A DNA stretch of 64,000 nucleotides from Moniliella sp. 'wahieum'. Lineage: Eukaryota. A model generated the notes under the pieces. It was not told where the DNA came from. It saw nothing but the letters and a program-made list of their open reading frames with translations, and searched no databases. Position numbers and translations under genes: made by a program. Shown in pieces: positions 11,961 to 45,493 of the stretch (position 1 is its first letter; the number at the start of each line of letters is the position of its first letter). Where the stretch lies: assembly GCA_003971905.1 (NCBI GenBank), contig RSEE01000081.1:248001-312000 (forward strand). Direction: 5' to 3'.

Positions 11961-12117
11961 CACCCTCAATCTCAATGCTAACGTCCAGGGGAAGACGGGG
12001 GCAACCTCAACGGCGGAGCGGGCAGGCTTGTGGCCTTCAAAAGCCTATAGGTAGCAGGAAAGACAACAGTTAGCAAGAGGAAGGGGACTAGGGAGAGAGA
12101 GCCACTCGACGACTTAC
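11961..12117 (-). pseudogene. Remnant of RidA paralogue (last exon plus preceding intron; exon 1 missing)
   Basis: Close match to 19165-19275 (encodes AFEGHKPARSAVEVA...LDVSIEIE). Intron signals GTAAGT (12117), GCTAAC and TAG (12045-47) are retained, but there is no exon 1 upstream. Confidence 0.75.
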
Positions 12118-12120
12118 CCA

Positions 12121-12713: not shown

Positions 12714-12828
12714 GTACTAGGTTCGATAGCATCATCATGTAGTGAGGGTATAGACATTCAGACAAGAACGCGGGCATGCAAGATAAAGCAGCGATCCCAC
12801 TGTTGCATGATGTGCCTGCAACGCCCTG

Positions 12829-18234: not shown

Positions 18235-18790
18235 TACCTTTTTGAAGGCATTCATTTCCAACAAAGACACCCCAACGATTCATCGTGCGCTTGACAGCAA
18301 TGTGCTGATGCGTGTTCGAATACCCGCACCAAAGCCTCCCTATCTCACGCGCGACGTAATACGTCCCTTCTATGATAACTCATCAACACTGGAAAGGGCT
18401 CAGTGTAAGTCCACATGCTAATAGTACTAGAGACAAACACTGCCTTCGTTTTCTAGTCCGTATCATACGACTCAGCGTATAGCAGTTGGAGATGTTAATG
18501 AAAGGCGGTAAACGGGAGCAGAAGGAATCAAAAGATGAGTCCGTGTTTTCCGAGTGCAGGAGGATCTGAATCAAAACACCCGGAGAACAAACGGGTGGTG
18601 AAGAGGGATGCGACATTCAACAGCAGCAGACGGTGTCGGAAACAGAGCCGGGCCTTGGCTCTGTACAGATAGCGAATAGAAAAAAAGTATCATCATCGTC
18701 AGTAAAGTTGCGCGGGCGCTGGGGTGAAAAGTGCAGTGATGGTATGGACAAACTGACGGGGCAAAAATGACAAGACAAGGACAAAGACAA
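18235..18790 (-). pseudogene. Internally deleted remnant of the GPI-type Ser/Thr protein gene (3' flank, part of last exon, part of intron)
   Basis: Blocks match 9168-9382, 9585-9678 and 9843-9975 in order, then jump to the homologue of ~11630. Confidence 0.75.
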
Positions 18791-19128
18791 CCTTTCGTAT
18801 ATGTCCTCCCACGTAGTAAGCAGGCATACCCATTATAGATCCCATCCCGCTTTGCCCACGGCCGCACACACCAAATTCCGACCCAGAGTAAGACAGCCTA
18901 CCCACCTCTTTTGTGAATCATGCATCAGGAGCAACCACAGGAGTGGCATCAATGTATCAACCCAAAATATGGCGATACAGATGTAGTATGGGGGGATCGT
19001 ACCAATCCAGCTTGCCGCCGTTCGTCCAAACCAAACGAGAAAGGTCAGGAACAAGGATAAAGCATGTGGGGAATACGGTGGTGTGGTCGGGGAGAGAGGC
19101 GGTGCATGAGAAGCGTTCGCCTGAACGC

Positions 19129-19648
19129 TTACGCACTGCCCGGGGCCTTGACCACCGCAGCGACACACTCAATCTCAATGCTAACGTCCAGGGGAACGGG
19201 CAACCTCGACGGCGGAGCGGGCAGGCTTGTGGCCTTCAAAAGCCTATAGGCAGCAGGAAGACAACAGTCAGCGAAGGAAGGGGGGAGGCAAATTAAAGGG
19301 CATATGAGGTCATATGGTCATACGAAGGCAGAAACGTACTGCTCGTATACAGCATTGATCCGCTTAAAGTGTTCCATGTTCTTGATGAACACTGTCGTCT
19401 TGAGCACCGACGACTTTTCTGCCCCAGCAGCCTTCAGGACAGCGAACAGGTTCTTGAACACCTGCTCCGTCTGTTTCTCAATCACCCCCGGCGCCGAAGC
19501 ATCGCCCTCGCCACCCTCAACCAACTTGCCCGTCTTCGGGTCGAGGGGATGCAGCCACATAAGCAGTCTGCGTGGCCTCATGCACAATGACCTGCGAATA
19601 GGGTCCCAAAGCGGCAGGAGCGTCGGGGGTGCTGTAAGCGGTAGGCAT
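19129..19648 (-). CDS. RidA/YjgF/YER057c/UK114 family enamine/imine deaminase (Mmf1/Hmf1-like); intron ~19244-19339
   Basis: MPTAYSTPDAPAALGPYSQ..., PLDPKTGKLVEG, QTEQVFKNLFAVLKAAGA...VLKTTVFIKNMEHFKRINAVY, then exon 2 AFEGHKPARSAVEVA..PLDVSIEIECVA. Confidence 0.92.
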
Positions 19649-20023
19649 GTTGGGAAACAGCGTGGAGAGCAAGGCAACAGTGGTGGTGGTTGTAAACACG
19701 GAGATCTGTCATGCCCAGAATGGCTGAGCGCCACGTCCGTGCGGCGGACGCGCGTTGCACCGAACCACATGACTCACTAGTCTTACCGGTAACCGTTACC
19801 GGTAACCTGGGCTCTGAGCGGACCCTTTGAAACGCACACGCCCAACGCGAGTAAACACTTCAAAGGGATGCGGCAGGAGAAAAGTACAAGACCGGTGGTC
19901 CGGTGATGAGCGGTGCAAAATCTCTATCTATTGGGTGTCCAGAAGAGGAGGTTTTCAAGACTTGGGCAGAAAAAAAGATAATAATCAACCACATTGAAAA
20001 AAATTAGGACGCCCATGTCGGGT

Positions 20024-20104
20024 CGAACGACGCAGGGGTCGAACCTGCAACCTCCTGATTACAACTAGTCGTAGTCAGACGCGCTACCATTGCGCCAGCC
20101 GTCC
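20024..20104 (-). tRNA. tRNA-Arg(ACG) with ~9-nt intron
   Basis: Reverse complement folds as GGACGGC/GTCGTTC acceptor, GCGC D-stem, TCTGA-CTACGA..-TCAGG anticodon arm and GCAGG-TTCGACC-CCTGC T arm. An oligo-T terminator follows (A run at 19997-20003). Confidence 0.93.
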
Positions 20105-20701
20105 TTGGTGCGTAAGTCCACCCCACACTACAAGTAACAAAATGTTACCACCGCATGCATCATATCATTTCCGGAACTGTGAACACTATTGCGCCTATCA
20201 GACTCTTTCCTTCGACGTGTATTGTTTCTCGTGCCAACCCATTCAAGGCTGAAAGATGTGACTCGCCAGCAGACCAGGATCCTCTGCCTCCCTGATTTGC
20301 TTCCAAATGGAGTGATGAGAATGGATACGGATCTTGTCAAGTGTAGAGACTTGTGTGCGTGAGCGAAGAGATGAATCATCTCCACTGAAGGAAAGAGAAG
20401 CTTCCAACACTTACATATCCTGTTGATCATCTTGGTAGCGTAGTAGAGCCCGCGCGTTGCCTTGGCCGGAGGAAGAATGACTCTTGAGTGCAACTACCAA
20501 CTTTCCAAATGTCAAGGTGTTTCCCGAAGCCTAAAACCCTCCATACACTTTCTTTTCACCGTTTGCACCATTTCTGAGAGCTGTTTGTATATAGTGGAGG
20601 CCATTTATGGTGTCTCCATCAGTATAGAGATATACAGAGGAGGAAGGATGGGAACAACAAGGTCAAAAGCAGCATGAGCATTCAACAATTGAGGGTGTGG
20701 G

Positions 20702-23700
20702 TAGTAGGTTCGATAGCATCATCATGTGGTTCACATCATTCATGTGGAGAGGGTATAGACATTCAGACAAGAACGCGGGCACACAAGAGAAAGCAGCAGC
20801 GCTTCCACTGTGTACCTCGCAGGCCCTCTCAGCATCCTCCACATCCACCACCGCCAACACCGCATCCGCCAGCACCTCCTCCACAGGCACCTGCTCCACC
20901 TGCCACGTTCCCACACCCACCAGCCGCGGAGCACGAGGAAAACCCGCCCACAGCACTGCAGCCACTCGCACCACAGGAGCCTGCGGCCACAGCTCCGCCA
21001 CAGGTCCCAGCCACGCACGCTCCCAAACTTCCGGCGCCCATGGCAACACACGCGGGGTTGCCTGCGTACATTCCCGAGTTGGAACCTGCAGTGATACATG
21101 GATCTGGGTAGTAAGGAGCGTAGTAGGGCATGTAGACAGGATAGACTCCCCACGCCATAGTCGCCGCTTCATCATTGGCCAGAGCACGCTTCTCGTTGCA
21201 TCTCTAGTGAGCAGACCGCGTTTGTGCAGTCGCCGTTGTGCCGCTTCGGCCTTAGAGACGAGACGACGATGCCGGACTGCTTCACCACGTACCGCTGCCT
21301 GGTCCCCTTCGGTGGACACGGCATTGTGGGCAGAAATGTGGGCGTTGCGCTCGGGATGGTTGTGGTCGATGTTGGGGTTAGAATGGAGGGCGTCCGCGTT
21401 GACCCGTGCCTGGAGGCAGTGGACGAGGAAAACAAAAGCGCTGGTGACACACGGCTTGTTTGGCTTTCACGCACCGCCTCACAGTACCAGCACGTACACT
21501 CTGAGTACGGCTGGCCATTGGTCAAGTTGGCATAGCGCTTGGATGTGAGCTCAAATGCATCGCTCAACCGACCCGAGGCGACTTTATCATCATGGTTGAT
21601 CATCCGCTTCATGTGATGCACCGTGTAGCAGTAATACCGTGCCGGGCTGAGTTGGTGGGTGTGCCAAGCCAAGTCCACGTCCAATGTCGGCACCGCCATG
21701 GAACCAGGGTATTTCTTCATGATTTCGAGAAGATGGAATACTTGGCAATCAACCGCGCCATCGTCTGCTCCAGTGCCGGCGAATGCAACCAATCAATCTC
21801 ATCCATCTTGCACACAAACGTGCCTTGGCGCAACACTGCCCCCACCAAGTCCAACCCAAACGGAGACGAATTTTCCCAGTACCGTGACATCATTGCCCGA
21901 ACCCCCACACGCCGGGCAACTGCCACCTCTCGTTGACCGGTTTGGAACCTCCAACCACTCGTACGATCATCCGGTTGGCACACGTCAGCTCCATCTGCTC
22001 CCGCACCTCCAGCATGGTCAGGTACGGATTGGCGTCAAAGTTCACCTTTTTCTGCAGTACCTCCAGCCCGTGTAACAACAGATGGCTCGCGTACGATTGG
22101 CTCATCACCGTCAAAGGATGGTGGGGCGGACGACCGTCGTAGGAAAGAATGGTACGGGCATAGCCACATCCGCGCTTACCAGTTGGCTATAGTCATACCG
22201 GAACTTGGCTACACGCAGCGTATCGTGCGTGATGTGAAATTGCACGAGGTACAGTCGGTGGTTAGGTTGGTATCGGTAAACCCGTCCTTTGCGTCAAACC
22301 ATGGCTTGGTCAGCTCGCCCAGGGGGCCACCAGTGGCCCATGGAATCTCTTCCTCCCGCTTGCAACGGGGACACTTGATCTTCTTCCCACCCTGGTCGTC
22401 TTGGTTTCGCCAGGCACGGCCGGTGGCCCGGGGGAACGCGTCGGCAGCCTCAGCAGAGGGAAGGTAATCGAGCGATCGTTGATGCACTCATCAATCAGGG
22501 CCCAGGGAAGCCTACATTCCACACCCGCATGTGGCCTGTACGAAGACAGTCTTCGAGGTAGTTGGTGGGTTGAGGCAAATGCGTGCCAGACCATCAGTAC
22601 ATCCAGCGGGGGCAGATTTTCCCTGCTCCACAGCGGTGGGTCCGAAGGCGACTTGGTGTTCTTCATCGCATCAGCCAAACCTGTGGTTGAGTCAACCAGG
22701 TCAACAGTGATCGCTGGGCCTGAGGATGGCAAGCAGTTCTTCCAAAATTGCTCAAACCGATCGGCGGCGCGTGCCACATAAACGGACCAGCGCTTTTCCC
22801 GCATCAGGGCCAGACCCTTGCTTTTATCCTCCTCCTTCGGGAATTGGCTCAACACGTCCTCGTCACGCAGGCCAAACAGACCATCAATATGGGCAATCGA
22901 ATCGCGCAAATCGGCAAAGACAGCGAGCAAGCGCAAATGAGCGACACACTCGTCGGACGTGACAGTCTGTGTGGTGTCGCTGGCAGCGATGTGGGGGAAG
23001 GTGCGCTGATAGGGGGTGTAGGCTGGTGGGGCCTCGCCTAGGCTGGGGGGCGAGGGGGGGGGGAACACCTTCTTGTCGAACGGCATATTGCAGCAGCAGT
23101 GTAGTGAACCTAGTGTAGAGGCGAGTGACGAGATGCGGTATGCGAGGTTGCTGAAGATGGTGAAGGGGAAGGGCAGGTTGGTGTGTATGGGGGGGTGTTG
23201 GTAGCAGAGGGGAGAGAAGAGCAGCGAGGCACCCCCGAATTTATGCGAGCACGGAGGGCTGCAGGAGCGATGCCGTCGGAGTTGAATGGCCGGCGCCAAG
23301 CATGGCAACGTACAAGAGACAGCTGGGAGGAGATCACTTCGTTGGGACAGTATCTCTCTGTGCTCGACATGTGCACACGTTGCGTGTTACGGGTGATGTA
23401 GTGACGGGCGCGGCCTGAGATCTCTGAGATCTGATATGGCGTTCTAGGTGAGTGGTGAGTGGTGAGTTGCTTCCAGCAGGGGGGGGTCGAACGAGTGCGC
23501 TCACCAAATTAATCGATCTTCATAGCTTCATAGTCCTTGGGCAGGAGGGAGCAGTGTGCGTTTGGAGAGACACCAGCGCGACGAGTGCCGGACGTGACCG
23601 GTGACCCTGTGCGACCTGTGACCAGCGACCGGTGACTGGGTGAGACCTGGGGCCTGGGCTGTGAGACAGCAGAGCGCGAGGTGAACCGGGGACCGGTGAG

Positions 23701-24626
23701 GCCTGAGTCCTCCTGAAGCCTGAGGCCTGACCGGTGACGGCAGTGCTCGGTGCCTGAGACTGTGAGTACGATGTCCTGCCTATAGTACTCACTGAACTGA
23801 GTATTGGGACTGAGTACACTGAGTGTGTACTGAGTATCCGAGTAGCAGAGACGCAAGCATACGATACGGTGCACTCGCTTACCTCGCCCATCTCCCTCTC
23901 TTCAGGTTTCTGGCCTCAGGGCCTCAAGGCCTCAGGGGCCTCATCGACACCGCACTGGCATCGCCCAACGCGCACCCGCTACCCGACCACAGCTTCGTCG
24001 ACATGTGGTCGATGATCGATGATTGATGACGTCGATGACGTCTACCGGGAAAACAGTCATAGGACCGGGCCGGGGGGCTGTATCTTGGTCCGGTCTGTGG
24101 CCGCGAGCAAGTGGGCGCGGGAGAGCCCGGGTGGCCGGTGACCTCACCCTCCCCGCCGCAGGAACGAAGGAGCGCGAGCGCGAGGAAGCCGAATAGCGCG
24201 AATCGGATATCTGAGGCCAGCTCTACCCCCTGTGCCAGCTCCAGCGACAGATATGTGCTTTTTGCTGAATGTTAGACTGCGTCGTTAACACGCGTTGGGG
24301 CGTTCGCGTTACAGGCTACATGAGCATGATATCAGCACATCTGCTGCATCCCTCTTTCAGTACGTGTCTCTGTCCGCTCCGCCTTGCGGGGTAGACAGGT
24401 CGCTGTAAACATTGCGGGCCGTGGAATGCCGAACGCCGCGCATGGCACACAGCTGATGCACTACACCCGGGTGTTACTATAAACGCATTCAAATTTTACC
24501 CGATGCGGTTCCCCTCGCGCCTAACTTCCCCCTGCTAGAGCAGGCTACGCCCTGAGGTTCAGCGCTGAGGCTCAGCGCTCAGCCTGAGCCCGCTCCCGTG
24601 ACCCATGTCAGAACATATCAGCCGAA
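20702..24626 (+). repeat. Direct diverged duplicate of ~12714-16410 (GRDP gene plus upstream region)
   Basis: Colinear similarity from TAGGTTCGATAGCATCATCATGT to CCCATGTCAGAACAYATCAGCCGAA in both copies. Confidence 0.95.
20829..23087 (-). CDS. Glycine-rich domain-containing protein (GRDP/DUF1399 family), paralogue 2; frameshifted
   Basis: Same motifs as 12829-15090. Starts MPFDKKVFPPP and ends ...GGGGCGGC*. Confidence 0.88.
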
Positions 24627-27592: not shown

Positions 27593-30507
27593 ATGCCTGC
27601 AACGGGACCCCAATTCTCAGCCTGCAAAATTGAGAGTGCACCTGCAATCTGAAGCGACCGACGCCGCATCGTATTCATCCTGCAACAAGCAGACCTGGTC
27701 CAAAACGAGCTCGCCGCTATCCAGGCCCGGGACCATATCCTATTTGAGCCCCATGCCCCCGAGGAGTCTCGAGAAGGAAGGACTTGCGATTTTGCATATG
27801 CACTCCAACGCGCATGGTACTCATGGCACGCTTCCACCTCATCCTTGAGCTCTTTGCCATCAATCACTTCGCGTACCCTCCCTTGGCATACCTTGAAGAA
27901 GGGTACCACCGCCTGCGTCTTACGGGATGAAGACCGTGCCTTGGACTGAGTACTGGCCCCCTACTCCAGAAGACGAAGACAAAGACAATAAAGAAGACAA
28001 GAGACAAATCAAGGGGCCCGAGGGCCATCAGCGCCTTCGCCGATCCCACTTTGAAGCGGTGGCGTGGTGCGTTCTACTTCCCTGCAGACGGTGGAGATGA
28101 TTATGCGCGCCGCCAAGCGTGCACATGAGCCCTAAGTCGACCCGCCAGGTTTGCCGCTAATGCCCAAGTCAGTCAGTATATCTTCTAGCCAAGGCGATTG
28201 TGACCTCTTCCACATCATGGGAATGCCATCGAAGTTGGCAGAGCCATTGGATGTCGATTTGCCTACGTGGACTACCAGACCCCTCGCAAGACCAAGCCTA
28301 TTGTTTCCAAACAAAAAGCAGCTGGATTGCCGGAGGAAGCCAAATCAGACAAGCTCGGTACCCATTCTAGGCACATGCGTGCTGTGCTTCGCTTGGATGA
28401 GTTTACTTGTGCTCCTCAAGCAACAGAGTCCCTGCCGCCTCTTCCATTGGATGTTTTACAGAAGGATTAAACGAGGAGCAGCTCAAGGCAATTCAACGCT
28501 CCATCATCCACCCCGCTCTGTACTATGCCAATAAGCCCACAAAGAAGAAATGCCCCCAACACCTGTCACAAGTGAGAAGAAAGACATAATAAGGACACTC
28601 TTTTCGTTCTCGATGCTCTTTCATCAATGAGTACTCAGAATGAAGCGAGAGAAGGAGAAAAGAGAGTCGTGTCTTGCCAAAACGCAACCCCGAAGAAGAT
28701 ACTGAATCTGATCCGCTCATCCCAATTTGAGGGGAAGAGGTAGGACCGGATGTACTTCCTTTCCATCTCCTACATGGACCCCTGGTACCGGCAAAACAAC
28801 GCGCTGGTCGAGCTGATCGTTTCAATTGGTTCTAGGAACGATGATTGGCAACGAACATTCGCGCAGACGGGGAACGACGGTCGATTTTCGACGCCCCCGA
28901 ATTTTGGTTACGGCACCTTCCAACTTGGCCATCGATGCGGTTGCCGAGCGGCTGATGGCTCCCACTACACCTTGGTTCCAGCTTTTCCGCAAACATCACA
29001 TCAAGGTGGCCCGAATTGGGAGCCCTGTGAAGATGACCAAACAAGTGGTACAGCACATGCAACACTTTCATCATGGATCTAAGAAATGCCCTATTCCTGA
29101 ATCATATTCCGATGGGCAGGTGTCAACCAAGATGAGGGAGCCTCCCTGCTCCTTCCAATGACACTCCTCTCCATCTGAATCGGAGGAAGATCTGTTGGTG
29201 GAATTCGTTACTAGCACCCTTCGGCCTCGGTATTGGCACGAAGCCGAAGTGGTGTTATGTACTTTGCACAACAGCGGCCGCAAGAATCTGGGTGGCCCGT
29301 TCGATTTTCATTATTGACGAGGCGTGTCAGGCGATGGAGCCGCTGTGTTGGGTGCCCTTAACCCGGGCTTGCCCTAATCCTCAAGGCCCCCTTGTCAAGG
29401 TAGTGATTGCAGGAGATCCGAAGCAACTGGGTCCAGTTCTCCAATCCGACGATGGGCTTTTTCGTCCTCCATCTTCATTCAAGAGAGGTGGAAATGAGGC
29501 AGACCCCCCTGTTCTCGTTCTTCCTCCGGAAAAGCAAGAAACCATGTTTGAGCGTTTATTGCACGCGTACCACGACTGGCCCGGAATCAAGACGTTTCTC
29601 AGAGTTCAGTATCGGTTCAATGAGGAGATCATGGCTTTCCCAAATACGTCCATGTATGAAGAAGGCCTGCGGGCGAACGAGTCCAACGCATCAATTGGAT
29701 TGAAGGGTCTCGTCAATACGTCGGAAACAAGATCCGAAGTTGGCATACCACTTCTGCCCCCATCCACAGAGGTGTCATGGAACAAGTTCCACTTACAATA
29801 TGCCTCCAAAGACACGGGCAAAAATCAAAAGGAGAAGAAGAACGCACGGGCTAAGAGGAGAGCCATGAAACGAGAAGAACGGAATGCACTCGAGAATCCA
29901 GGAGCCAAGGATACCGAGAAAGTAACGCAAGGTGCGCTCGCCAATGGTTATATGCCTGAGGATGACACCGAGTGGGATGCGCCGCTTGTTTTTTATGATA
30001 CGGGAGGGTACAGTCTATGGGAATCAGAACCGTCGGGGGGCCCTACCAAGTCCATGAGTAACCCAGCCGAGATGCGACTGGTCGTGGCTCATGTGCTCAA
30101 ACTTTTGGCTCATGGGGTCCGCCCTGACCAGATTTCCATCTTGACTCCCTACACGGCCCAGGTGCGCGCTTTACTGGAGACGGAATGATGCGCGAAGGGG
30201 CTCCACCGCTCGTCTGGCCAAGTTTTTCCCCAACCTCGCCATTGGCTCCATCGACTCGATGCAAGGCCGAGAGAATGAGGTGGTAATTGTTACCCTCGTG
30301 CGGAGCAACCGGACCCATGATGTGGGTTTCCTTAAAGACACTCGTCGGCTCAATGTTGCCTTGACTCGAGCCAAGCGTCAGCTGTGCATTGTGGGGGACA
30401 GTTGGACGATTAGGGGGAGTAGGCGCCATACTCATACTTACCTTTCGAATTTGATGCGCCATTTGAGGGAGCACGCTAGCCTTCCGTCGATCGAGGCGCT
30501 CATCTAG
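27593..30507 (+). CDS. Superfamily 1 Upf1-like helicase (Hcs1/IGHMBP2-like); frameshifted; start approximate
   Basis: Walker A HGP(P)GTGKT at ~28773-28800, ILVTAPSNLAIDAVAERL, IIDEACQAMEP, AGDPKQLGP, TMFERL, LRVQYR, ISILTPYTAQV, DSMQGRENEVVIVTLVRSN, VGFLKDTRRLNVALTRAKRQL. Confidence 0.9.
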
Positions 30508-36900: not shown

Positions 36901-38520
36901 CTCAGGGACAGCACTGCGACAGCTGGCCAGTTTGGGGAAGACGTGAACTGGCAGCTGCTGCTGCGCCAGGCTGCACCTGTAATTTCAGCGGTTCAACGTT
37001 CAACGTTCAACGTTCAACGTGCATGAAAGAGGAACGTTGAACGATGGGACGTTGGCACGTTCAGATCGTGCTTCGAAGACCCAAGTCAGGCCCCTAACAT
37101 GCTAACACTTAAACGCGCCTCTGGGCTTAAGCGGTCTGCGCGGATGATCGATGAGGTCGATGAGGCCGAGTATCCGTCCAGCGCCCATTCCCTTGGTAGC
37201 ATGCACCGCGTTACGCTGCACGCGAACTGCTGAGCCGCAGTGCCTCACCGCCCACTACCTCGCAGGTCCCAGGCTTCAAGCTTCAGGCTGAACAAGAGGC
37301 CTATGCGCCTATGCCACGATGGGTAGTGTTCTGATGGGGGGTGCCCCTGACGCCGCAGCCTGGCGCAGCCCGCGCTCAGGCGCTCGAACTCAGTGCTTCA
37401 AGCTCCAAGCTTCAAGCTGTAAGCTGTAGGCTGTGAGTACTGTGAGTCGAGGGACGCGTTGATGGCTGCACAGTGCACAAGTTCATAATCAGCCACGTGT
37501 ACGTTGGTGGCGAAGTTGTTGCCCCCGTCGAACGGGGAGCTTGGATGCCGTCCACTTGGGTACTAGCAGGGATAAGTGGGGCGGACGCAGGACGCGGGAC
37601 GCGTGCCGCGTGAAGCGTGAAGCTTTTGAAAGGGACGTGCGAGAGATCTGATCGAAATCCAGGCGGCCTGGACCGAGGCACGGCCCGGCGCCCAGCCTGG
37701 TGCATGGCTGAGCAGTGGCTAGTGGCTGGGCATTACACGGCCGGAGTTATGTGACGCGTGACGCGTGACGCGTGATCATCTCGATCATCGTTCATCAATT
37801 GATGCCAACGATTAATGATTCGATGGAATGCGAGCGCGCCAGCATGCATGACTCACGCGTCACGCGTCACGCCTCCCACGCTGAGCCGCTCAGCTCTAGA
37901 TCTCACACCCACAGAGCTAGTGACAGTGACGCTGTGACGAATGTGGTTGAACGTTGATGCGTGATGCATGGTCATGATGCATGATGACTGACAGCACCAT
38001 GCCAGAGAAGCGTTATCAACACGTCAATTGCATGTCAATTCAATATTCAAGCCAGCGCAAGGATATACCCATCCAGACCCCAGGGGAGGCTGGGGAGGCC
38101 GAAAAGAAGAGAGCGTAGAAAGAAACCCCCGCAGCTGGGACCATGAATGCGAAAGGCTTCTTTCCTGTATAGCTAGGATCCTAAAACATGCGAGCAGCCA
38201 GAGTTAGCCGTTAGACGTTAGCGCTAGCGTTTAGCGCTTAGCGGTACCGGTTATCGATTATCGGTTGCCGATTGTCGACTGCTAGCATGTCAGCATGTCA
38301 GCGCTGAGGCACAGCGCTCTGCCTGTGGCCTGAGCGCTCGCTCCCACGGGTACCGGGTACGAGTTGCCGGCTGGGGCTGCGTGAATTTAGGCCTGTGCTG
38401 CCCTTTGATGAATTTGCGCACTTGAGACATCTATGATCGATGCCACCCGGTTACGACTTGGGCGTTACGCGTTACGGGTACAACGGCCGATGATCGATGG
38501 TCATGCATCGTGGATTGTTG
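34000..38520. repeat. Dense field of short 7-bp tandem repeats (T-N-A + 4-bp palindrome) in gene-poor DNA
   Basis: (TGACATG)n 34113; (TGAGTAC)n 34252; (TTACTAG)n 34544; (TGATGCA)n 35155; (TAACCGG) 36591; (TCAACGT)n 36993; (TGACGCG)n 37752; (TTAGCGC) ~38231; (TTATCGA) ~38250. Confidence 0.9.
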
Positions 38521-40351
38521 ACCGGTGATCGGGGAGTGACGGGCTACCAGCCTCGGCAACAACGCATGGCTGCTGGCCCTGTTGCTGTGTAAAATTCGGA
38601 AGGCTGACCATGTGCCAGGGGAGCAGCACATGTTCCCGTGTGAGGCAATGCCTGCGTCCCGCCCTGGCACCAGCTCAGCCATGGGGGACACGCGCTGATA
38701 TCGATAGCGCACCTGTCCTGCAGCTGTCGCATGTGGGCGCAGGCAGCAGCGCGCTTGCGGCTGGTGGGTGCGACAGGCTGGCCATGTACGCGGTGCGGCT
38801 GCATGCTGCATGCCCATGCCCCATGCACCATGTCCAAAGAACGGGTGTGCCAGGGTGCGCCACGTCACCCTTCATGCATCACGCTGCCGCTTTCACCGCG
38901 CCCACCTGGACCCCGCAGGCATCCCTGGCACCCCAGGACACACCGCCTGGGACCACGCTGTCTGCTCGATTTACTGTGCCATCGGCCGGTTGTCTTCGAT
39001 CTGCAAACAGAACGAGCGGCGGACAAGATTCCGTGGCTGACACAGCGCTGGTGCGCGGCAGGTGCTTGGCCACAGGGGCTGGCGGCGAGGCTGGCGCCCT
39101 GCCGGGTCGGATTCCGATTGGATCTGGGATGGCGACGAGACAGGGGAGGCGCTGGAGGGTACCCGCCTCAGGCTGTGGGGAAGGGGTTGACGACCATTAG
39201 TCACTAGTCATGCGTCGTGTGTGGCAGTCAGCGGTCCTGTACATAGGGGCGTCGGCCCCAAGATGGCTGCAGTGCCTGCGGTGCGGTCAGTTTTGCCGTG
39301 TGGGACCGGGGTGGTGCAGAGCCACCGACGGCGTGGGGGCGCCCAGGCGCACCGGATGCACCGGGGGGGCAGTGTGGGCTGCGGTGGCGGGCGCCTGCAG
39401 GGGTGGCCGGTGGCAGCGATCGCTTGGTGCGATCAACCGTTTCCCATCGCACGGTCATGCATCCGCCCATCAGCGCTCGGCAGCACCCGCCCCCTGGGCT
39501 GGCACGCTGCTGCGGGGACCGCGGGAGCAAGGCGCAAGGGGTACGTTGGCGCGGGCTCTTGGTCGGTCGGCCGTCGGTGGGGAGCTGCGTCACGCGTCCC
39601 TAACCGCTTCGGCGGCGCACCAGCCTCACACTTGCCCGTCACCGCTGCGGTGGCTGGGACGGTGGGTGCTGGGCAGTGCCGTGCGTGGGGGCGCGCGTGC
39701 TACGTAGGGCTGGTGCGGCTGGCCTGCCTGCTGCTTGCTGCGGGCGTACGCGCTGCTGCCGGCTGCTGCAGGCTGGCACCAGCACTCGGCCCTGGCTGGG
39801 CGCTGCGACGGTTGTGGCCTGTGGTCTGCTGGCTGGCCTGCTGGCCTGCGGACTGGCTGGGGTGTTCTGTCTTGTCTTGCCTGCACTCGGTCCAGCACCG
39901 GCACCTCCTTGCCTGGCCTGCCTACGCTTGTCTTGGGCGTTTCTTCGGTCTTTGCCGCTGCGTTCCATCCGCTCTGCCTTCTCCATCTCGCTTCTCTGCT
40001 GCCTCCGCCCCACCTCCATCCCCGCCGCCTGCCTTCCTGCCTCCTCCTCCGGCCGCTCCGCCCGCTGTGTCGCTCGCTCCCTCCGCCCCACCTCGTCCGC
40101 CTGCTTTCTGCTGCTGTCCCCCCACACCCGCGAGACCGGCTCAGGCACCCCGCCCACCCGCCCTCCCCTTCGCCTTCTTTCGCCGCCCCCCACACGCGCC
40201 CCGCCTCGGCTGCGGGCCCTGTTCTTTCTCCTGCTGCTGCTGCCGTTGAGCCCAGCCAGCCTGCTGTGCCCATTGCTCCTGCCGCTGTCCGTACGTAGCA
40301 CGCCCGATCGACGGCCTGCTCGCGTCACGTCGCGTGTCCGACCCTTCACCC

Positions 40352-43300
40352 ATGCCCCCCGCGCCCGAATACACACCCTACCAGATCGTTCGCCCACCAG
40401 CCCTACAAACGCCAGTTAGCCAGTCCACCGCGGCCCGATCATGCCTGCCGCCTGCTGTGCTCCCTGCCTTGTCGGGCCCCAGCTGGGACTCCTCCCCCTT
40501 TGGCCCGTCGTCCGGTCCCGCGGGTGCGCCTGTTGGTGCCTCCGCGTCCGAAGGCCCCTTGGGCCCACCTTACTCGGATCCTAGCACTGGGCCCAATGCC
40601 GTTGCCCCCCATACCGACCAATACTATTACCAGCGCACCTCCCCCACCCTTCCCCCCTGCGCGGCCCGCCCACCACTCGCCGCAGTGCACCCCAACTGCC
40701 GTCGCAATCGCAGACGCAATCGCAAGCGCAATCCCAGCCCCCGCCTGCCTCCCCCCCTACCTTCTCCTACTCCGACCCGGCCCTGCTCCAAATCAGCCGT
40801 CGCTCCACTACGACCAACGTCGGAGCCATCTCCCCTATCCATCGTTCCTCGGTCCCCTCGGTCTCTCTTCCTGCTCCGCCTCTGTCGCGCAGGCGCAGCT
40901 CCAGTACCAAGGCTCTCACCGGTGCCAAGCCCGACGTGGCTGCCGATCCGCATTCGACAGCTAGGGCGCCATCGGGTGGCCCGCGTCGTCGTTCGGTACG
41001 CAAGTCGCCAAGTACGGGTCCCACTGTCGCCGTGGTTCCCGTTGGCTCAAAGTCCATCGGAAAGTACATTGCGGCAGTATGATGATACGATTGTCACGAT
41101 GAAAAATGGCTGGCAACCCACAAGCCCGAGCTTGCCGATTCGTTTGATCAAGTGTCGGAATTGACGCTGGACGCGATGCTGCTGTACATTGATGATGCGT
41201 GGACCGCGGCTTGTCGTACAATACCGTGAGTCGGGTCAATTCAGCCCTAGCCGCGTACTTTAAGTTTCGTCTGAAGCGCGAATTGGCTGCCTGGGACCAG
41301 ATTCAGGACCTCAATGAGCGTCACGCAAAAGGAAACCCCTGTTTCTCGGAGCGGTACCGTGCTCGTACAATTCCATTTCCCGCACTGGCGGGGAACGCCG
41401 GCGCCGGCGCGACTCGGAGCAGGATGTGAAAGTCAAGCCCCTCCTTTATCCTGAGCTGGCCGTAGTCCTATCATATTTGCGCGAGACGATGGATGAGGTG
41501 CGTGTGAAACATCTGCCCCGCCCTACTCCCCCCGTCCCTCGTCCCTTGGCATTCTTACTGACTCATGCATGTCGTCTGTTCAGGACGCTATCACGAACAA
41601 CAAGTTCTTCCCGGGAGCTGGTGCTGTTTCTGTTTATGCCACCTTTTTGACCCTCAGCTACTTGCTCTGGACGCGCCTCGATGAGTTGCTCTTGCTCAAG
41701 TGGGAGAACATTTCGTTCAGCGACTACACTGGCAAGTTTGTCTCGCCCGAGGCTACTACGAAACTGTTGAAGGGTACGCTCGGTCTCACCGATGACCCGG
41801 CAGCGCTGTCGACCCAAACTACACACGCCTACCCCGACCGCCGTGGTCACTCTACCCTGGCGAGAAAATAACGATCGGCAGCCCAAGACGTACTGTCTCC
41901 AGTACCCAGGCCGAAAAGCCAACGCTGGATCCCGCTGGCACCATTACGCGTTGGCCCAATTTTGTGTCCGGCTCAATGGCAACCAGCCGCTGGAACCCAA
42001 GTTCCTCGTTTTTCCCTCCTTCAATAAGACCAACCTCTATGCTCCGCATTCACGCATGTATGGGACCAAGTTGCTTGACCAGATGAAAGAACTCTTTCGT
42101 CTCGCCGGTCTGGGCACGTCGAGCGGGCCTTCTCTCTCTCTCTCTCTCGGTGGAGCGGGCGTGCCGCCGCAAGGTGCTTTGGGCCGTTCCTCGCGCCCAG
42201 GTTCGCTGGGCGAATCTCCTGACTTGGAGGGAGATTATACCCAGCTCAGCGCCTTCGCAAGGGGGGGTGATCGATGGTTTGCTGCAGGGCAGTCGGTATG
42301 ACTCACCTGATGGCGCCGCATGGGCGGTCTGGTGGGGATGATGGGTTGTCGCAGGCCTCGATGAACAGCTTCCTTCACATGAGGGACAGTCGAGGAGCCG
42401 GCCGATGCTTCTTCTGCAACTTCGCCGGACCCAATGCGAGCGGGCGGGAGGAAGGCGGGCTTCAGGACGCAACTTGCCCCGGCGTGCAGCCTCCTGCGGC
42501 GATTCAGCACGCGGGCCAGCAATAACTCCACGCTTCGGTTGGCTCGGGCGTGACGGATGCGTCGCTGAGCCCCGAGGAGGCCCAGCTACCGGCTCAGCCG
42601 CCTAACCCGCTGCCACCTCACGGCGCCCCAGCCTCTACGGGGCCAGCGTACTGAGCCACCTCTTCCGAATGCACATCTCGCCGCGGGCACTACGGCTCCT
42701 ACGGCGTTTTCCCCCCACCGACAGCGACACGCGCTTTCCTTCCATCGTATACCATGCGCCAGTCCGATCCTGCCTTGGCATCCAACCCCCTTGTTGGACC
42801 AGGCAACGCGCGTCTGGACCGTCGGCTGGGTTGTATGGCCCCTCTCCTACCCCCCTCGGACCCGGTGCAGGCGCACATGTTTGTCGATCCCAATTCGCCC
42901 CCTCCGCCTACGTCCACCGGTCATCCCGCTGGCCCCGGCCCGGTTCCCACGTCTGCGCCTGCCCCTTCGGATCGAAGGGTGAGCGTTGACCCGATGGGGG
43001 GGATGAGTGTCTTGCCCCCCCACACGGTGGATCGGCGGCTGTCCTTGGGTCCTACTCCCCCGGGTTTGCCGCCCATTGCGGGAGCCGGGCCGCAAGGGGG
43101 CGGCACGATGCCCTCGCCGGTAGGCAGTCGACCGGGTCCGCGTCAACGCCCTGGACCGTACTATTACGATCCTGTTCTCCGCGTCAAGGCGATGGCTACG
43201 GGATCTACCCGCCGCCGGTCCCCCGTCCCATTTCCCCTGCGAGTCACATGGCGCACGTGCCCGGCCACATGAACCATGTTCCGCCCCATGTGGGCCATGT

Positions 43301-43493
43301 TACCGACCGACCCTCCGTTTCGCCGCACCAAGGCCATCACCTCTCCCCCTCGCCTTACCTTGGCCACGCGTACCACCCCCGGCCCACCACCCCGCTCCTA
43401 CGCAAACCATGCCCTACTCAACTTCCCTTCCCAGCCCCCCCCACAGCTGGGCAGGGCTACCACGCCCCGCCTCAGGAGCGGTGGTACAATTAA
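40352..43493 (+). CDS. Protein with degenerate tyrosine-recombinase (Crypton-like DNA breaking-rejoining) core between Pro-rich arms; intron 41498-41583; frameshifted
   Basis: Core ~41040-42400 reconstructed across frames: STLRQY...LSYNTVSRVNSALAAYF...GNPCFS (core-binding-like), FLTLSYLLWTRLDELLLLKWENI (first catalytic Arg box), LVFPS, SAF(R/A)xGG, WWG*W. Intron GTGCGT...ACTGAC...CAG. Family assignment is from remembered motifs, not a database search. Confidence 0.6.
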
Positions 43494-44880
43494 CCCCCAT
43501 TCTTTCCCTTTCCCTTTCCTTCTTTGACCCCCTCTGGCCCTTTAGCGGGCCTGAGGCGAGCCCCCTCCTGATCCCTGTCCCTGCCCTGCTCTTTTCCGGT
43601 GCCGTCAGCCACGCCTTCGGTTGGAGCAGGTGGACCAAGTGTGCATGTTCCCTACCCCGCACACGTCTTGACATGGTTACGATTTACGAGCCTCATGTTT
43701 CCTGGTGCGAAGATCTGCGTGCGCCCTCTTTGGTTTTGTCTTTCTCTTTTTTTTTCTCCCCTTCGCCCTTCACTTGCCCGTTGCCCCTTGTCCCTTGCCC
43801 CTTGTCTCTCTTGCCCCTTTCCCCTTGCTCCATGCCCCTTACTCCTTGCCTTTCTTCCGTTCCTCTTTTGTTCCTCTTTTGCTCTTTGTTTGATCGCTGT
43901 TCTCTTCCTTCCCTTGTTTCTCGCCTACCAAATCATGCTTTGCTCTGCCCCGCCGTTTCCCGCTAGTCGCTCTATGACGGTTTGTATGGATTTTTTTTAC
44001 CCGCCTACCAGCCTGCGCATGCCCATCACCAAACCAAGGTTTTACTAGTGGTGGCAGTGACTCCCGACTCGCAAGGGGGGAGAGACAACTATAGGAAGAC
44101 TGGCCGTGCGCGCAGCGAGGCGCGATATGGAGCCGTGACATGCGGGAAAGCTACACTGAGTTACGAGGGGGGTGGGAGGGAAGTGGCGCGGTGCGGTGCG
44201 GCAGTGGGCCATTGAATATGGATGGACACCGAATTCATCGGACTGTGGCTCTCTAACCATCCGTCGGTAACACGCCACACAGTTCTATGATCTCCTATCT
44301 CCCCACTGTGGCACGTTCCCCCCCGATGCGCGAACCTTGGTGGCGAATCTGGTGCAGTGCAGCCTACCCGCCTTCTGAAGTCTGTGATCTGAGGCCTACT
44401 GAGATGCACTGATGGCCGATGCTTCAGGCGATGGAGCGTATGTGCGATTTCGTCAACGTTCACCACTACGCCCGATCCAATCAATACATGCAACACCTCC
44501 GCATTGCGCCGAGCCATCCTCCTTCCACACCTCAATCATCTTCAAGATTGGAATCGAATCAGATATGCACAGGAGCAACGTTGGCATACATGTGATCGGG
44601 GGGCAGTTGACAGGCACCTACACTGGCCAAAGCAGAAAGCGTCTCTTGGAACTTGACGGACTTGCCTTGATCGATGGCTAAGGTTATGGTTGCGACTCGG
44701 CCAGCCCAACATACAGAAACAACTACAGGGCAAGCACAAGAGCGAGGCAGGTATCATATTTTGGTGTGGGGGATCCACGGTCGAGGACGGGCCACAAACT
44801 GTGGCCGACCAAAGTAAGGAGATGAGTGTATCCTAGGGGGACGGCATGAGTGACATGGGGACAGAAAGCGTATTCAACAG

Positions 44881-45493
44881 TTACTCCTGGTCAATAACGA
44901 CCGTCTCGAGGCCCTTGAACGAGGTGATGCCAAACACGGGCGTGGCCACAACGTAAAGCTTCTCCTTGGCGTCCTCATCGTCATTGCGCTTGCGCTCCAG
45001 ACGCACCCGAATCCGGCGCGGGACCGACTTGACGCCCAACTTCCAAATCTCCTCGTTGAGCTTAGGGTCGATGCGAACGTCCTTGACGCTCATGGCGCGC
45101 TGGGCAAAACGGACAACCTCCTTGATGGCACGAGGGGCCGTCTTCTTGTCTTGCATGCGGAAAACACGCTTGGCCAAGTGGATCGTGTACTCGCGCTACC
45201 AACCAAAACAAACGAAACAAGTTAGCCAATCGGGCACACCCAAAGCAGACCAAGCGATGTCGTAATGCGCACAGGGCAAAAATAGCCAAGCGAAGGGCAA
45301 ATCTGCCCAACGCTCTCGACGATTCCCCCCTAAGGGGGAAGGGTACCGGCCTCTTACAGAGACCGGGACCGAGGCGTCGACCGGCAGACCTTCATGCATC
45401 TCGGGCAAAGGACGGCATTCAGAGTCCCAGCAGGATACTCACGGTCACGACGTCCTTGAGGACGGAACGCTGTGTCTTCTTCGTAGGAGCCAT
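44881..45493 (-). CDS. RPL31: 60S ribosomal protein L31 (eL31); exons 45443-45493 and 44881-45195
   Basis: [28 protein letters not shown]...[13 protein letters not shown]...[43 protein letters not shown]. Intron GTGAGT...GCTAAC...TAG. Confidence 0.97.

What the first reader, a model, noticed from the sequence alone, without database searches (positions are those of the whole stretch)
40352..43493. Candidate domesticated tyrosine-recombinase (Crypton-like) gene with degenerate active site
Seen: an intron-containing reading frame with Pro-rich and His/Pro-rich arms around a ~450-codon core. The core retains LWTRLDEL (Arg at 41674-41676), but the other expected catalytic positions look altered: WRENN where RK is usual, SAF(R/A)xGG at ~42248 for HxxRRGG, WWG*W at ~42329, and SMNSFL where a Tyr nucleophile would be expected. 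No flanking terminal repeats or RT/gag were seen. Established: tyrosine recombinases use R-K-HxxR-H/W-Y, and fungal Cryptons have been domesticated (Gcr1/Msn1/Hot1, Ndc10/Cbf2). Inference: a catalytically dead DNA-binding or chromatin regulator, possibly an undescribed lineage-specific domestication. Frameshift noise makes residue-level calls uncertain.
Basis: partly seen in the sequence, partly recalled or inferred. Interest (0 to 1): 0.75.

Follow-up and report, generated by a model that had tools for sequence, protein, structure and literature searches.

The report
Broken copy of tamed recombinase gene
This stretch is a fungal gene descended from a DNA-cutting recombinase that lost its cutting residue long ago and probably became a DNA-binding regulator, but the copy in this window is broken by many one-letter shifts, so it is either a dead gene or badly assembled sequence.

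Summary
They do not lie in one spliced frame, though. They sit in three frames joined by at least nine, probably 10-11, single-base frame changes between 41047 and 42348, plus one candidate intron (41498-41583). Read frame by frame, the locus is colinear with a 1323-aa 'hypothetical protein' of the basidiomycete yeast Tilletiaria anomala (152 of 265 residues identical) and with two unnamed proteins. These were the only 3 hits among 1.84 billion representatives. The family has a SAM-like N-domain and box I of tyrosine recombinases. hhalign gives P=8.5e-5 with its Arg on XerD Arg148. Three HMM libraries give weak integrase, XerC or SAM-domain hits, and ESM Atlas neighbours are integrase and DUF3504 clusters. 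All members have Phe where Cre has Tyr324, so they cannot recombine. Long disordered tails with conserved short motifs and a conserved C-terminus point to a host gene, not a transposon. Crypton ancestry itself could not be tested. As assembled, this copy cannot be translated: it is a young pseudogene (slightly favoured) or a poorly assembled stretch. It is a known kind of thing in a new, unannotated lineage.

The parts
40352..41046 (+). N-terminal Pro/Ser-rich low-complexity arm starting at the first ATG. The best-looking frame changes at least twice (about 40650 and about 40980). RRGSRW at 41028-41045 matches P0001.
   Evidence: Three-frame translation; tblastn of P0001 4-195 and 98-251; DP alignment.
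41048..41497 (+). SAM-like (core-binding) domain region, colinear with P0001 residues 146-294. It is read as four blocks in frames 2, 1, 0, 2: 41048-41099, 41101-41193, 41199-41363, 41366-41497.
   Evidence: Identity to P0001 is 12/16, 21/31, 36/55 and 18/43. The P0001 region hits Pfam Phage_int_SAM_1 at E=0.053, NCBIfam XerC at E=0.034 and PHROG integrase at E=0.01.
41498..41583 (+). Candidate intron, 86 nt (GTGCGT...TACTGAC...CAG). Alternatively it is a 29-codon in-frame insert (41498-41584), because the stretch has no stop in frame 2.
   Evidence: Sequence; ORF 41318-41650 is continuous; the DP alignment prefers the intron plus one extra base.
41585..42121 (+). First half of the recombinase-like catalytic domain. 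It holds box I YLLWTRLDELLLLKWENISF (Arg 41674-41676), the hairpin TLPWRENNDRQPKTY (41849-41893, Lys 41885-41887) and the LVFPSF patch (42005-42022). Blocks lie in frames 2, 1, 2, 0, 2.
   Evidence: hhalign places the family Arg on XerD Arg148 with P=8.5e-5 and 1.7e-3. The extended alignment reaches the LFPS patch with P=1.1e-3. ESM Atlas with 41584-41871 returns Phage_integrase clusters at 0.93.
42122..42232 (+). Low-complexity insert (Ser/Leu/Gly-rich) at the place where all relatives carry a variable low-complexity insert.
   Evidence: alignment A1 columns 525-630.
42233..42393 (+). Box II-like end of the domain. It holds YTQLSAFARGG (frame 2), VIDGLLQGSRYDSPDGAAWAVWWG (frame 0), TGA at 42339-42341 where the relatives have Gly, and SQASMNSFL (frame 1) with Phe 42370-42372 at the Tyr position.
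   Evidence: BLASTP of P0002 GGWTNEESMLKFLQN against Cre 313-327 GGWTNVNIVMNYIRN gives E=2.1, which is weak. The W-to-F spacing of 9 equals the W/H-to-Y spacing in Cre and XerD.
42394..43493 (+). C-terminal Pro/His-rich disordered arm, with further frame changes (for example near 43170). Its end ...GYHAPPQERWYN* resembles the relatives' ...HAPPPPAWNAPR*.
41046..41047 (+). Frame change, one base missing (frame 0 to 2), between RRGSRW and QSPSESTLRQYDD.
41100..41106 (+). Frame change, one base missing (frame 2 to 1), at an A5 run, between DDTIVTMK and KWLATHKPELADSF.
41195..41200 (+). Frame change, one base missing (frame 1 to 0), between LLYIDDA and VDRGLSYNTV.
41362..41365 (+). Frame change, one base missing (frame 0 to 2), between FSERYRA and YNSISR.
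41639..41640 (+). Frame change, one base missing (frame 2 to 1), just before TFLTLSYLLW. The block on its 5' side matches weakly.
41833..41836 (+). Frame change, one extra base (frame 1 to 2), at a C4 run before TAVVTLPWRE.
41904..41906 (+). Frame change, one extra base (frame 2 to 0), between CLQY and QAEKPTLD.
41954..41956 (+). Frame change, one base missing (frame 0 to 2), between GTITRW and QFCVRLN.
42261..42267 (+). G7 run carrying a frame change (frame 2 to 0; one extra or two missing G), right inside the HxxR-like motif.
42339..42348 (+). Frame change, one extra base (frame 0 to 1). One reading has an in-frame TGA at the invariant Gly plus an extra G at 42348. The other has an extra T at 42339 and no stop.

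Best explanation
The locus is this genome's copy of a small host-gene family that descends from a tyrosine recombinase and lost recombination before its known members diverged.

The ancestral protein had four parts: a disordered N-arm, a SAM-like core-binding domain, a recombinase catalytic-type domain, and a long disordered tail. In the catalytic-type domain Arg I, a hairpin Lys, Arg II and the WWGGW Trp are kept, but His II is lost and Phe replaces the nucleophilic Tyr. The tail carries short conserved motifs, among them an RGRP (AT-hook-like) motif in two of the three relatives.

Inferred mechanism: the two domains still clamp DNA as a recombinase does. Without the Tyr hydroxyl no covalent DNA link can form, so the protein acts as a DNA-binding or DNA-bridging regulator of transcription or chromatin, with the tails recruiting partners.

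In this window the copy is broken by about ten single-base frame changes and possibly one TGA. I take it to be a young pseudogene rather than a working gene.

Shown: the homology, the box I alignment, Phe at the Tyr place, and the frame breaks.
Inferred: DNA binding, the regulatory role, and that the breaks are real.
For: Family:
- 3 of 1,835,955,588 representatives hit at E<=0.001. P0001 is Tilletiaria anomala K437DRAFT_128645, annotated 'hypothetical protein'.
- The window is colinear with P0001 across 8 blocks, 152 of 265 residues identical.

Recombinase descent:
- hhalign of the family against XerD/XerC/Cre/lambda Int aligns box I with Arg on XerD Arg148, P=8.5e-5 and 1.7e-3. The extended alignment from the SAM domain to the LFPS patch has P=1.1e-3.
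- The only hit, or the best hit, of P0001 in three HMM libraries is a recombinase model at residues 147-337: Pfam E=0.053, PHROG integrase E=0.01, NCBIfam XerC E=0.034.
- ESM Atlas neighbours are integrase, SAM-domain and DUF3504 clusters at 0.93-0.96.

Dead enzyme:
- Phe is invariant in the 3 distinct relatives (P0002, the fourth row of alignment A1, is a fragment of P0004) and in the window. It pairs with Cre Tyr324 in the second-best BLASTP segment.

Host gene:
- The C-terminus and tail motifs are conserved across 700-aa disordered tails.
- There is one core copy in the window and no flanking repeats.

Broken copy:
- One search finds 10-11 frame changes in 1.3 kb. Neighbours show 3 direct frame jumps in about 2,000 Pfam-matched codons (my tally; jumps read). 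Poisson P is 3e-8 to 2e-5.
- The core has 57% GC and ordinary homopolymer density.
- The other locus in the window with this lesion density is a redundant duplicate gene copy (11 frame changes in 1.1 kb). Lesions therefore cluster where selection can be relaxed.
- TGA sits at the invariant Gly of WWGGW.
Against: Against real decay:
- Every well-defined lesion is a single base, the same type as the frame jumps in the conserved neighbouring genes.
- No other in-frame stop lies in about 430 corrected codons, and the TGA can be read away by a one-base slip.
- Identity to P0001 (57%) is higher than the identity among the other relatives (129-139 of 277).
- 41 of 56 family-invariant positions are kept in the first half of the catalytic-type domain.
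- The intron signals are intact.

Against the fold claim:
- Sequence and profile searches of the PDB found no recombinase.
- No Pfam, PHROG or NCBIfam hit reaches a curated cut-off.
- The AlphaFold model had pLDDT 39 and its Foldseek hits are meaningless: 0 with E<=0.001.
- hhalign of the box II part alone did not find box II (P=0.18, elsewhere in the template).
- BLASTP against XerD gave nothing.

The function is wholly inferred.
Confidence: 0.48

Rival explanations
1. Same family and same inferred function, but the gene is intact and working in the organism. On this view the ten or so frame changes are single-base assembly errors.
For: - Conserved neighbouring genes carry the same kind of one-base frame jumps with no room for an intron: Aa_trans near 48966, BAR_4 near 58007 at a C4 run, and helicase AAA_12 between 30176 and 30232.
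- All well-defined lesions here are single bases, several at A5, C4 or G7 runs.
- There is no certain in-frame stop.
- Similarity to P0001 and the invariant residues are well kept, and the splice signals are intact.
- In the duplicated block, indels reach 19 against 83 substitutions over alignment columns 600-2400. That is high for real divergence (recalled expectation about 1 in 10) and hints at an error layer.
Against: - The lesion density is about 7 per kb against about 0.5 (at most about 1.1) per kb in neighbours, Poisson P 3e-8 to 2e-5.
- Neither GC (57%) nor homopolymer density sets the core apart.
- Long open frames nearby (459 and 815 codons) show the assembly is not uniformly this bad.
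- The best-matching reading has TGA at an invariant Gly.
Confidence: 0.37
2. The locus and its relatives are decaying relics of a Crypton-like transposon, not a host gene family. The database 'proteins' would then be gene-model artefacts.
For: - The domain is recombinase-derived.
- The window copy is broken.
- Two of the three relatives are N-terminally truncated gene models.
- ESM Atlas neighbours include Crypton-related DUF3504 clusters.
Against: - The same replacements (Phe for Tyr, LPWRED, LRKGG, WWGGW) are invariant in all relatives.
- The very C-terminus and short tail motifs are conserved across about 700 disordered residues.
- The database holds only 3 clusters, of 1, 3 and 1 members.
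- There is one core copy in 64 kb, no flanking repeats and no GCR1_C or other transposon domain.
Confidence: 0.07
3. The resemblance to tyrosine recombinases is a chance likeness of motifs. The family would be an unrelated lineage-specific protein.
For: - No curated threshold was reached in any library.
- The PDB searches found no recombinase.
- The structure model failed.
- Box II was not found by hhalign.
- hhalign probability is only 15-60%.
Against: - Independent tools converge on one pre-stated hypothesis and in the right order along the protein. The SAM-domain hits fall at 147-227, box I at 311-337 with Arg on Arg, the LFPS patch follows, and the GGWTN..F segment pairs with Cre 313-327.
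- Two ESM Atlas queries, one from the window and one from P0001, both return integrase families.
Confidence: 0.06

Closest known systems
Crypton tyrosine-recombinase transposons (CryptonF/A/S/I; Kojima and Jurka 2011, PMC3212892, passages read)
   Same: A eukaryotic protein with a tyrosine-recombinase-type domain and no RT, gag or terminal inverted repeats. Fungi are known hosts.
   Different: The R-H-R-Y tetrad is not intact (His and Tyr are lost). There is no GCR1_C domain, no target-site or terminal direct repeats and a single copy in the window. A phylogenetic link to Cryptons was not tested because no Crypton sequence was at hand.
Crypton-derived host genes: yeast Cbf2/Ndc10, Gcr1, Msn1, Hot1, Cdg1; animal DUF3504 genes KCTD1, ZMYM2-4, QRICH1, KIAA1958, WOC (PMC3212892; PMC13465315)
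   Same: A recombinase-derived domain with a dead catalytic site sits inside a larger, largely disordered regulatory protein and is conserved as a host gene. DUF3504 clusters appear among the ESM Atlas neighbours (0.94).
   Different: There is no Pfam DUF3504, GCR1_C or Ndc10 hit and no PDB hit to Ndc10. The lineage is different (relative in Tilletiaria, Ustilaginomycotina). Here Arg I, and in the relatives Arg II and Trp, are kept, and Phe stands for Tyr.
Cre recombinase of phage P1, and its Tyr324-to-Phe mutant (the mutant's behaviour is recalled, not from a call)
   Same: Box I aligns (BLASTP segment P0002 3-26 against Cre 162-185). GGWTNEESMLKFLQN pairs with Cre GGWTNVNIVMNYIRN with the same Trp-to-nucleophile spacing. 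A Phe at this place should allow DNA binding but not cleavage.
   Different: Both segments are far from significant on their own (E=0.34 and 2.1). His289 has no counterpart. The family carries a large low-complexity insert and 700-aa tails.
XerC/XerD-type bacterial recombinases
   Same: The domain order matches: SAM-like N-domain, box I, LFPS patch. The hhalign box I match puts Arg on XerD Arg148, and NCBIfam XerC is the only hit of P0001.
   Different: Scores are far below the family cut-offs (13.5 bits against 335). Box II was not aligned. BLASTP shows nothing.

Membership tests
Tyrosine recombinase superfamily | Box I with catalytic Arg I | tested here: met
   hhalign aligns YLLWTRLDEL with XerD YATGLRVSEL, Arg on Arg148, with P=8.5e-5 and 1.7e-3. 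The window Arg is at 41674-41676.
Tyrosine recombinase superfamily | N-terminal SAM-like core-binding domain upstream of the catalytic domain | tested here: inconclusive
   P0001 residues 147-227 hit Pfam Phage_int_SAM_1 at E=0.053, NCBIfam XerC at E=0.034 and PHROG integrase at E=0.01. All are below curated cut-offs. The extended hhalign alignment has P=1.1e-3.
Tyrosine recombinase superfamily | Box II His-x-x-Arg | tested here: inconclusive
   hhalign of the C-terminal part did not find box II. By eye the relatives have (V/V/Y)-x-(L/I)-R-K-G-G, so Arg is kept and His is lost. The window reads F-A-R-G-G on a G7 run that carries a frameshift.
Tyrosine recombinase superfamily | Nucleophilic Tyr about 9 residues after the His/Trp III position | tested here: not met
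   Phe stands at +9 from the last Trp of WWGGW in all 3 distinct relatives and in the window. It pairs with Cre Tyr324 in BLASTP. The spacing in Cre and XerD comes from alignment A5.
Tyrosine recombinase superfamily | Recombinase catalytic-domain fold | tested here: inconclusive
   AlphaFold2 of P0002 with a 4-row alignment gave pLDDT 39 and pTM 0.27. Foldseek against the PDB gave 0 matches with E<=0.001. The predicted order (helix, three strands, helices) is compatible, but at low confidence.
Active Crypton transposon | Intact R-H-R-Y tetrad | tested here: not met
   Tyr is replaced by Phe and there is no His at the HxxR place.
Active Crypton transposon | Multiple copies with short terminal direct repeats | tested here: not met
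   The core occurs once in 64 kb. Only short, chance-level repeats lie around 39-44 kb. Genome-wide copy number could not be tested with these tools.
CryptonF and its derived genes (Gcr1/Msn1/Hot1/Cbf2) | GCR1_C DNA-binding domain | tested here: not met
   No GCR1_C hit at E<=1 in the 10 window pieces or in P0001-P0003.
Crypton lineage (any group) | Grouping with Crypton recombinases in a tree | not testable with these tools
   No Crypton sequence could be fetched, and the protein searches returned none.
DUF3504 (PF12012) domesticated recombinase genes | Match to the Pfam DUF3504 model | tested here: not met
   No hit at E<=1. The only link is ESM Atlas neighbour clusters carrying DUF3504 on 87% and 17% of their members, at score 0.94.
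Domesticated (host) gene | Conserved, non-mobile orthologues with conserved non-catalytic residues | tested here: met
   Three relatives share 98 invariant columns in the core, the C-terminus and the tail motifs. Their clusters hold 1, 3 and 1 members.
Domesticated (host) gene | Open reading frame in this genome | tested here: not met
   The window copy needs 10-11 frame changes and may carry a TGA.
Domesticated (host) gene | Shared synteny (for example with RPL31), purifying selection, expression | not testable with these tools
   No eukaryotic genome context, orthologue DNA or RNA data was available.

The most novel reading that the evidence does not exclude
An undescribed, independent domestication of a tyrosine recombinase in a small group of basidiomycete yeasts (Ustilaginomycotina). 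On this reading the gene is intact in the organism and the frame breaks are assembly errors. The protein keeps most of the active-site pocket but has Phe for the nucleophilic Tyr. It would then be a natural 'binds and bridges DNA but cannot cut' recombinase, used as a chromatin or transcription regulator through its AT-hook-bearing disordered tails.
Probability: 0.33. Interest if true: 0.6.

Novelty: new member of a known kind. Interest (0 to 1): 0.45.

Why it matters
Tamed tyrosine recombinases are known from budding yeasts (Ndc10/Cbf2, Gcr1) and from animals (ZMYM2-4, QRICH1). A 2026 paper notes that fungal cases 'remain less explored' (PMC13465315, passage read).

This family matches no Pfam model, so domain-based screens for co-opted transposon genes would be expected to miss it. 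For example, the main text of the 1237-genome fungal screen PMC10799480 mentions no Crypton and has 'tyrosine recombinase' only in one reference title.

If the family is confirmed, it adds a basidiomycete case in which nearly the whole active site survives except the nucleophile. That makes it a useful natural test of what a recombinase fold does once it can no longer cut.

For this window the practical message is simpler. The locus should be annotated as a frameshifted copy or pseudogene of that family, and the assembly carries single-base indel errors.

Tried and rejected
Sequence and family searches that found nothing useful:
- Pfam on 10 single-frame pieces at E<=1: nothing.
- PDB sequence search with two pieces: nothing relevant, only polyphenol oxidase at E=1.2.
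- PDB profile search with the family alignment: only low-complexity matches at E>1.
- Word-indexed protein searches. The window piece with longer targets found none. P0001 140-640 found itself only. The clean core profile A4 found P0001 and P0003 only. These searches missed P0004, so their silence is weak evidence.

Structure and profile comparisons:
- AlphaFold2 of P0002 gave pLDDT 39, and Foldseek on it gave no meaningful match.
- hhalign of the box II part alone did not align to box II.
- BLASTP against XerD gave nothing.

Attempts to measure frame noise in the neighbours:
- A codon-usage Viterbi frame tracker was too weak, with GC3 only 0.64.
- Aligning the two Aa_trans paralogues gave only noise because they are too divergent. 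One search also used a wrong frame.
- Pfam on small ORFs added little.

Splicing and repeats:
- Introns cannot explain the frame changes. For example, candidate splices at 41078-41152, 41227-41422 and 41774-41864 would delete blocks that match P0001.
- The inverted repeat 39154-39173 / 43549-43568 (20 nt, 85%) and the direct repeat 40197-40215 / 43463-43481 were rejected as transposon ends, because dozens of such matches occur in 12 kb.
- No RIP: the duplicated block shows 111 transitions against 84 transversions.

Not done or not available:
- The genome-contig scan (bacteria and archaea only) was not used.
- No supplementary files were consulted.
Full report
**Setting.** The window is eukaryotic, fungal-type DNA.
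- It carries ribosomal protein L31e at 44881-45195 (-), two amino-acid transporter genes, an RRM protein, Ebp2, a BAR/PH protein, Rad10/Ercc1, a GTPase and a Upf1-like helicase (Pfam).
- The 38-44 kb stretch is the most GC-rich part, at 62-64%.
- The conserved core of the finding (41000-42400) has only 57% GC.

**The observation.**
- LWTRLDEL, with Arg at 41674-41676.
- LPWRENN at 41852-41872.
- SAFARGG at 42248-42268.
- WWG*W at 42330-42344.
- SMNSFL, with Phe at 42370-42372.

The Pro-rich arm from the ATG at 40352 and the His/Pro-rich arm ending at the stop at 43491-43493 are also there. The motifs, however, lie in different frames.

**Relatives.**
- Single-frame pieces gave no Pfam hit at E<=1 (0 of 10 pieces) and no PDB sequence hit of relevance.
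- A full HMMER scan of 1,835,955,588 representative proteins with the piece 41771-42301 found 3 proteins at E<=0.001: P0001 at 1.3e-15, P0002 at 1.1e-11 and P0003 at 1.3e-08.
- P0001 is the 1323-aa 'hypothetical protein K437DRAFT_128645' of Tilletiaria anomala UBC 951. P0003 (1033 aa) and P0004 (830 aa, of which P0002 is a fragment) are unnamed.
- Three word-indexed searches added no further member. They also missed P0004, so their silence is weak evidence.
- None of the three relatives scanned (P0001-P0003; P0002 stands in for P0004) reaches any Pfam cut-off.

**Colinearity and frame breaks.** tblastn of P0001 on the window gives:
- P0001 98-251 in frame 0 at E=5e-21.
- P0001 311-336 and 367-461 in frames 1 and 2 at E=9e-26.
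- P0001 146-296 in frame 2 at E=1.6e-4.
- The core matches nowhere else in the 64 kb. The only other matches are low-complexity tail matches at E of about 1e-5 or weaker.

A protein-to-DNA alignment of my own, which allows frameshifts and GT-AG introns, runs colinearly from P0001 residue about 117 to about 465. It needs frame changes at 41047, 41100, 41195, 41365, (41584), 41640, 41836, 41906 and 41956. Its last part went astray in P0001's low-complexity insert. From there I mapped by eye and by local alignment, which adds changes at the G7 run 42261-42267 and at 42339-42348.

Nine of these events have well-matched blocks on both sides. All are single bases, except possibly two at the G7 run. 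Block identities to P0001 are 12/16, 21/31, 36/55, 18/43, 17/26, 12/23, 9/16 and 27/55, in total 152 of 265.

Introns cannot explain the changes, because neighbouring blocks abut or overlap. The only intron candidate is 41498-41583 (GTGCGT, TACTGAC branch, CAG), and the same stretch also reads through in frame as 29 codons (41498-41584). So 'intron-containing reading frame' is not what is there.

**Is it recombinase-derived?** Several weak lines agree with the hypothesis, which was stated before these tests were run.
- In three HMM libraries the only or best hit of P0001 is a recombinase model over residues 147-337: Pfam Phage_int_SAM_1 at E=0.053, PHROG phrog_1 integrase at E=0.01 and NCBIfam XerC at E=0.034. 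All are below curated cut-offs.
- I fetched XerC, XerD, Cre and lambda Int from annotated records. Their alignment puts the known catalytic residues in invariant columns.
- hhalign of the family against that alignment matches box I, with the family Arg on XerD Arg148. P=8.5e-5 at probability 60%, and P=1.7e-3 with the second family alignment.
- With a permissive setting the alignment extends from the SAM-like domain through box I to the LVFPSF / LFPS patch, P=1.1e-3.
- The ESM Atlas feature search returns Phage_integrase clusters at 0.93 for the window piece 41584-41871. For P0001 146-470 it returns Phage_int_SAM, Phage_integrase (76% of members) and DUF3504 (87%) clusters at 0.94-0.96. By the tool's own account these are leads.

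Against the claim:
- The PDB profile search found no recombinase.
- The AlphaFold model of P0002 from a 4-row alignment had pLDDT 39, and its Foldseek hits are meaningless.
- hhalign of the box II part alone failed.
- BLASTP against XerD gave nothing.

I put recombinase descent at about 0.9. The Crypton label remains untested.

**The active site.**
- Arg I is kept.
A family-invariant Lys follows seven residues later, in the turn of the hairpin that the low-confidence model predicts. So loss of the hairpin Lys is not shown.
- At the HxxR place the relatives read VCLRKGG, VSLRKGG and YCIRKGG: Arg is kept and His is lost. The window reads FARGG on a G7 run that itself carries a frame change, so that residue call is unsafe.
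- WWG*W is WWGGW in the relatives.
- Nine residues after its last Trp stands Phe in all 3 distinct relatives and in the window. That is the same spacing as Trp315 to Tyr324 in Cre and His270 to Tyr279 in XerD.
- The second-best BLASTP segment between P0002 and Cre pairs GGWTNEESMLKFLQN with GGWTNVNIVMNYIRN (E=2.1). The best segment pairs the two box I regions (E=0.34). Both are weak, but they are colinear.

Without the Tyr hydroxyl the covalent step of recombination is impossible (established chemistry of the family; see also the passage in PMC13465315).

**Host gene or transposon?**
- The relatives share 98 invariant columns in the core.
- Across roughly 700 disordered residues they also share short motifs: SY(L/F)QQVLS and LWPLP in P0001 and P0004, an RGRP motif in P0001 and P0004, YYxGSDPSSYA in all three, and the very C-terminus PPPPAW(N)APR.
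- The window ends ...HAPPQERWYN*, which resembles that C-terminus.
- The database clusters hold 1, 3 and 1 members.
- There is one core copy in the window.
- Nothing better than chance-level repeats flanks the locus.
- No GCR1_C, RT, gag or transposase domain was found.

This fits a domesticated gene that lost catalysis before the known members diverged.

**Pseudogene or assembly noise?** Conserved neighbours do carry one-base frame jumps with no room for an intron:
- Aa_trans near 48966.
- BAR_4 near 58007, at a C4 run.
- Helicase AAA_12 between 30176 and 30232.

So the assembly has indel errors. By my tally that is 3 jumps in about 2,000 Pfam-matched codons, about 0.5 per kb. Counting every staggered ORF junction as a jump gives at most about 1.1 per kb. 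The core here has at least 9 in 1.3 kb, with Poisson P between 3e-8 and 2e-5. Its GC content and homopolymer density are ordinary.

One other locus shows the same density. It lies in a 2.7-kb segmental duplication (12730-15419 against 20734-23418, 90.9% identical). There, copy B of a GRDP-like gene has 11 frame changes and 2 stops in 1.1 kb relative to the open copy A. The two copies differ by 195 substitutions and 35 indels, 25 of them single bases.

Dense lesions thus sit in two loci where selection could be relaxed, which favours real decay. On the other side:
- All lesions here are single bases.
- No certain stop exists, because the TGA disappears if the extra base is placed at 42339.
- Similarity to P0001 (57%) exceeds that among the other relatives (47-50%).
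- 41 of 56 invariant positions are kept in the first half of the catalytic-type domain and about half in the box II part.

I put pseudogene slightly ahead (0.48 against 0.37). Only reads or cDNA can decide.

**Mechanism (inferred).** A recombinase-type two-domain clamp binds DNA. With Phe for Tyr it cannot cut, so it would bind or bridge DNA. The AT-hook-like motif (motif identity recalled) and the long Gln/His/Gly/Ser-rich tails suggest a transcription or chromatin regulator, as in Ndc10/Cbf2, Gcr1 and the ZMYM proteins (PMC3212892, passages).

**Novelty.** Four literature searches found no description of this family or of a recombinase domestication in Ustilaginomycotina:
- 'Crypton' + 'tyrosine recombinase' + 'domestication' + 'fungi': 28 papers, 15 listed.
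- 'Crypton' + 'Ustilaginomycotina': 1 paper, on rust fungi, listing only seen.
- 'tyrosine recombinase' + 'domesticated' + 'Basidiomycota' + 'transcription factor': 2 papers.
- 'Tilletiaria anomala' + 'recombinase': 0 papers.

It is a new member of a known kind. Its interest is moderate, and is lowered by the broken state of this copy.

**Unchecked.** The following could not be checked:
- Genome-wide copy number.
- Synteny with RPL31.
- dN/dS.
- Expression.
- Any tree with Crypton sequences.

The one genome collection on offer holds only bacteria and archaea and was not used.

Noticed in passing
window 9190-16374 and 18262-24563: A roughly 7-kb block is duplicated in direct orientation. The best segment is 12730-15419 against 20734-23418 (90.9% identical). 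Further pieces at 77-93% are 9190-9382/18262-18466, 11646-11958/18800-19115 and 15695-16374/23935-24563. In the best segment there are 195 substitutions (111 transitions) and 35 indels (25 of one base).
   Followed up: partly
window 20766-21889 (-) versus 12761-13897 (-): Copy B of a GRDP-like (PF07173) gene has 11 frame changes and 2 in-frame stops relative to the open 379-codon copy A, although 317 of 365 aligned residues are identical. It is a decaying duplicate or a locally error-rich stretch.
   Followed up: partly
window about 48966 (+), about 58007 (-), 30176-30232 (+): Three conserved genes show one-base frame jumps inside Pfam domains with no room for an intron: the Aa_trans transporter, the BAR_4/PH_20 protein and the AAA_12 helicase. 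The assembly evidently carries single-base indel errors.
   Followed up: yes
window 37750-37878 and 36991-37046: Short tandem and inverted repeats of GTGACGC and CAACGTT units. The first contains repeated ACGCGT, which I recall as the MluI cell-cycle box (a recollection, not a test). They form inverted arms 37750-37775 / 37853-37878 (26 nt, 92%).
   Followed up: no
window 20024-20104 (-): ARAGORN calls one tRNA-like gene with an undetermined anticodon, just upstream of the duplicated block. No other tRNA was found in the 64 kb.
   Followed up: no
window 40484-40642 (+): The N-terminal arm contains ...PPYSDPSTGPNAVAPHTDQYYYQ..., which resembles a motif (GYYAGSDPSSYATS...DQYYTQ) lying in the C-terminal tail of P0001 (tblastn E=0.17, not significant). 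This is chance or a rearranged tail.
   Followed up: no
window 38500-40350: About 1.8 kb at 64% GC lies upstream of the locus. It has long open frames in several frames on both strands and only low-complexity translations. No domain was found, and its nature is unclear.
   Followed up: no
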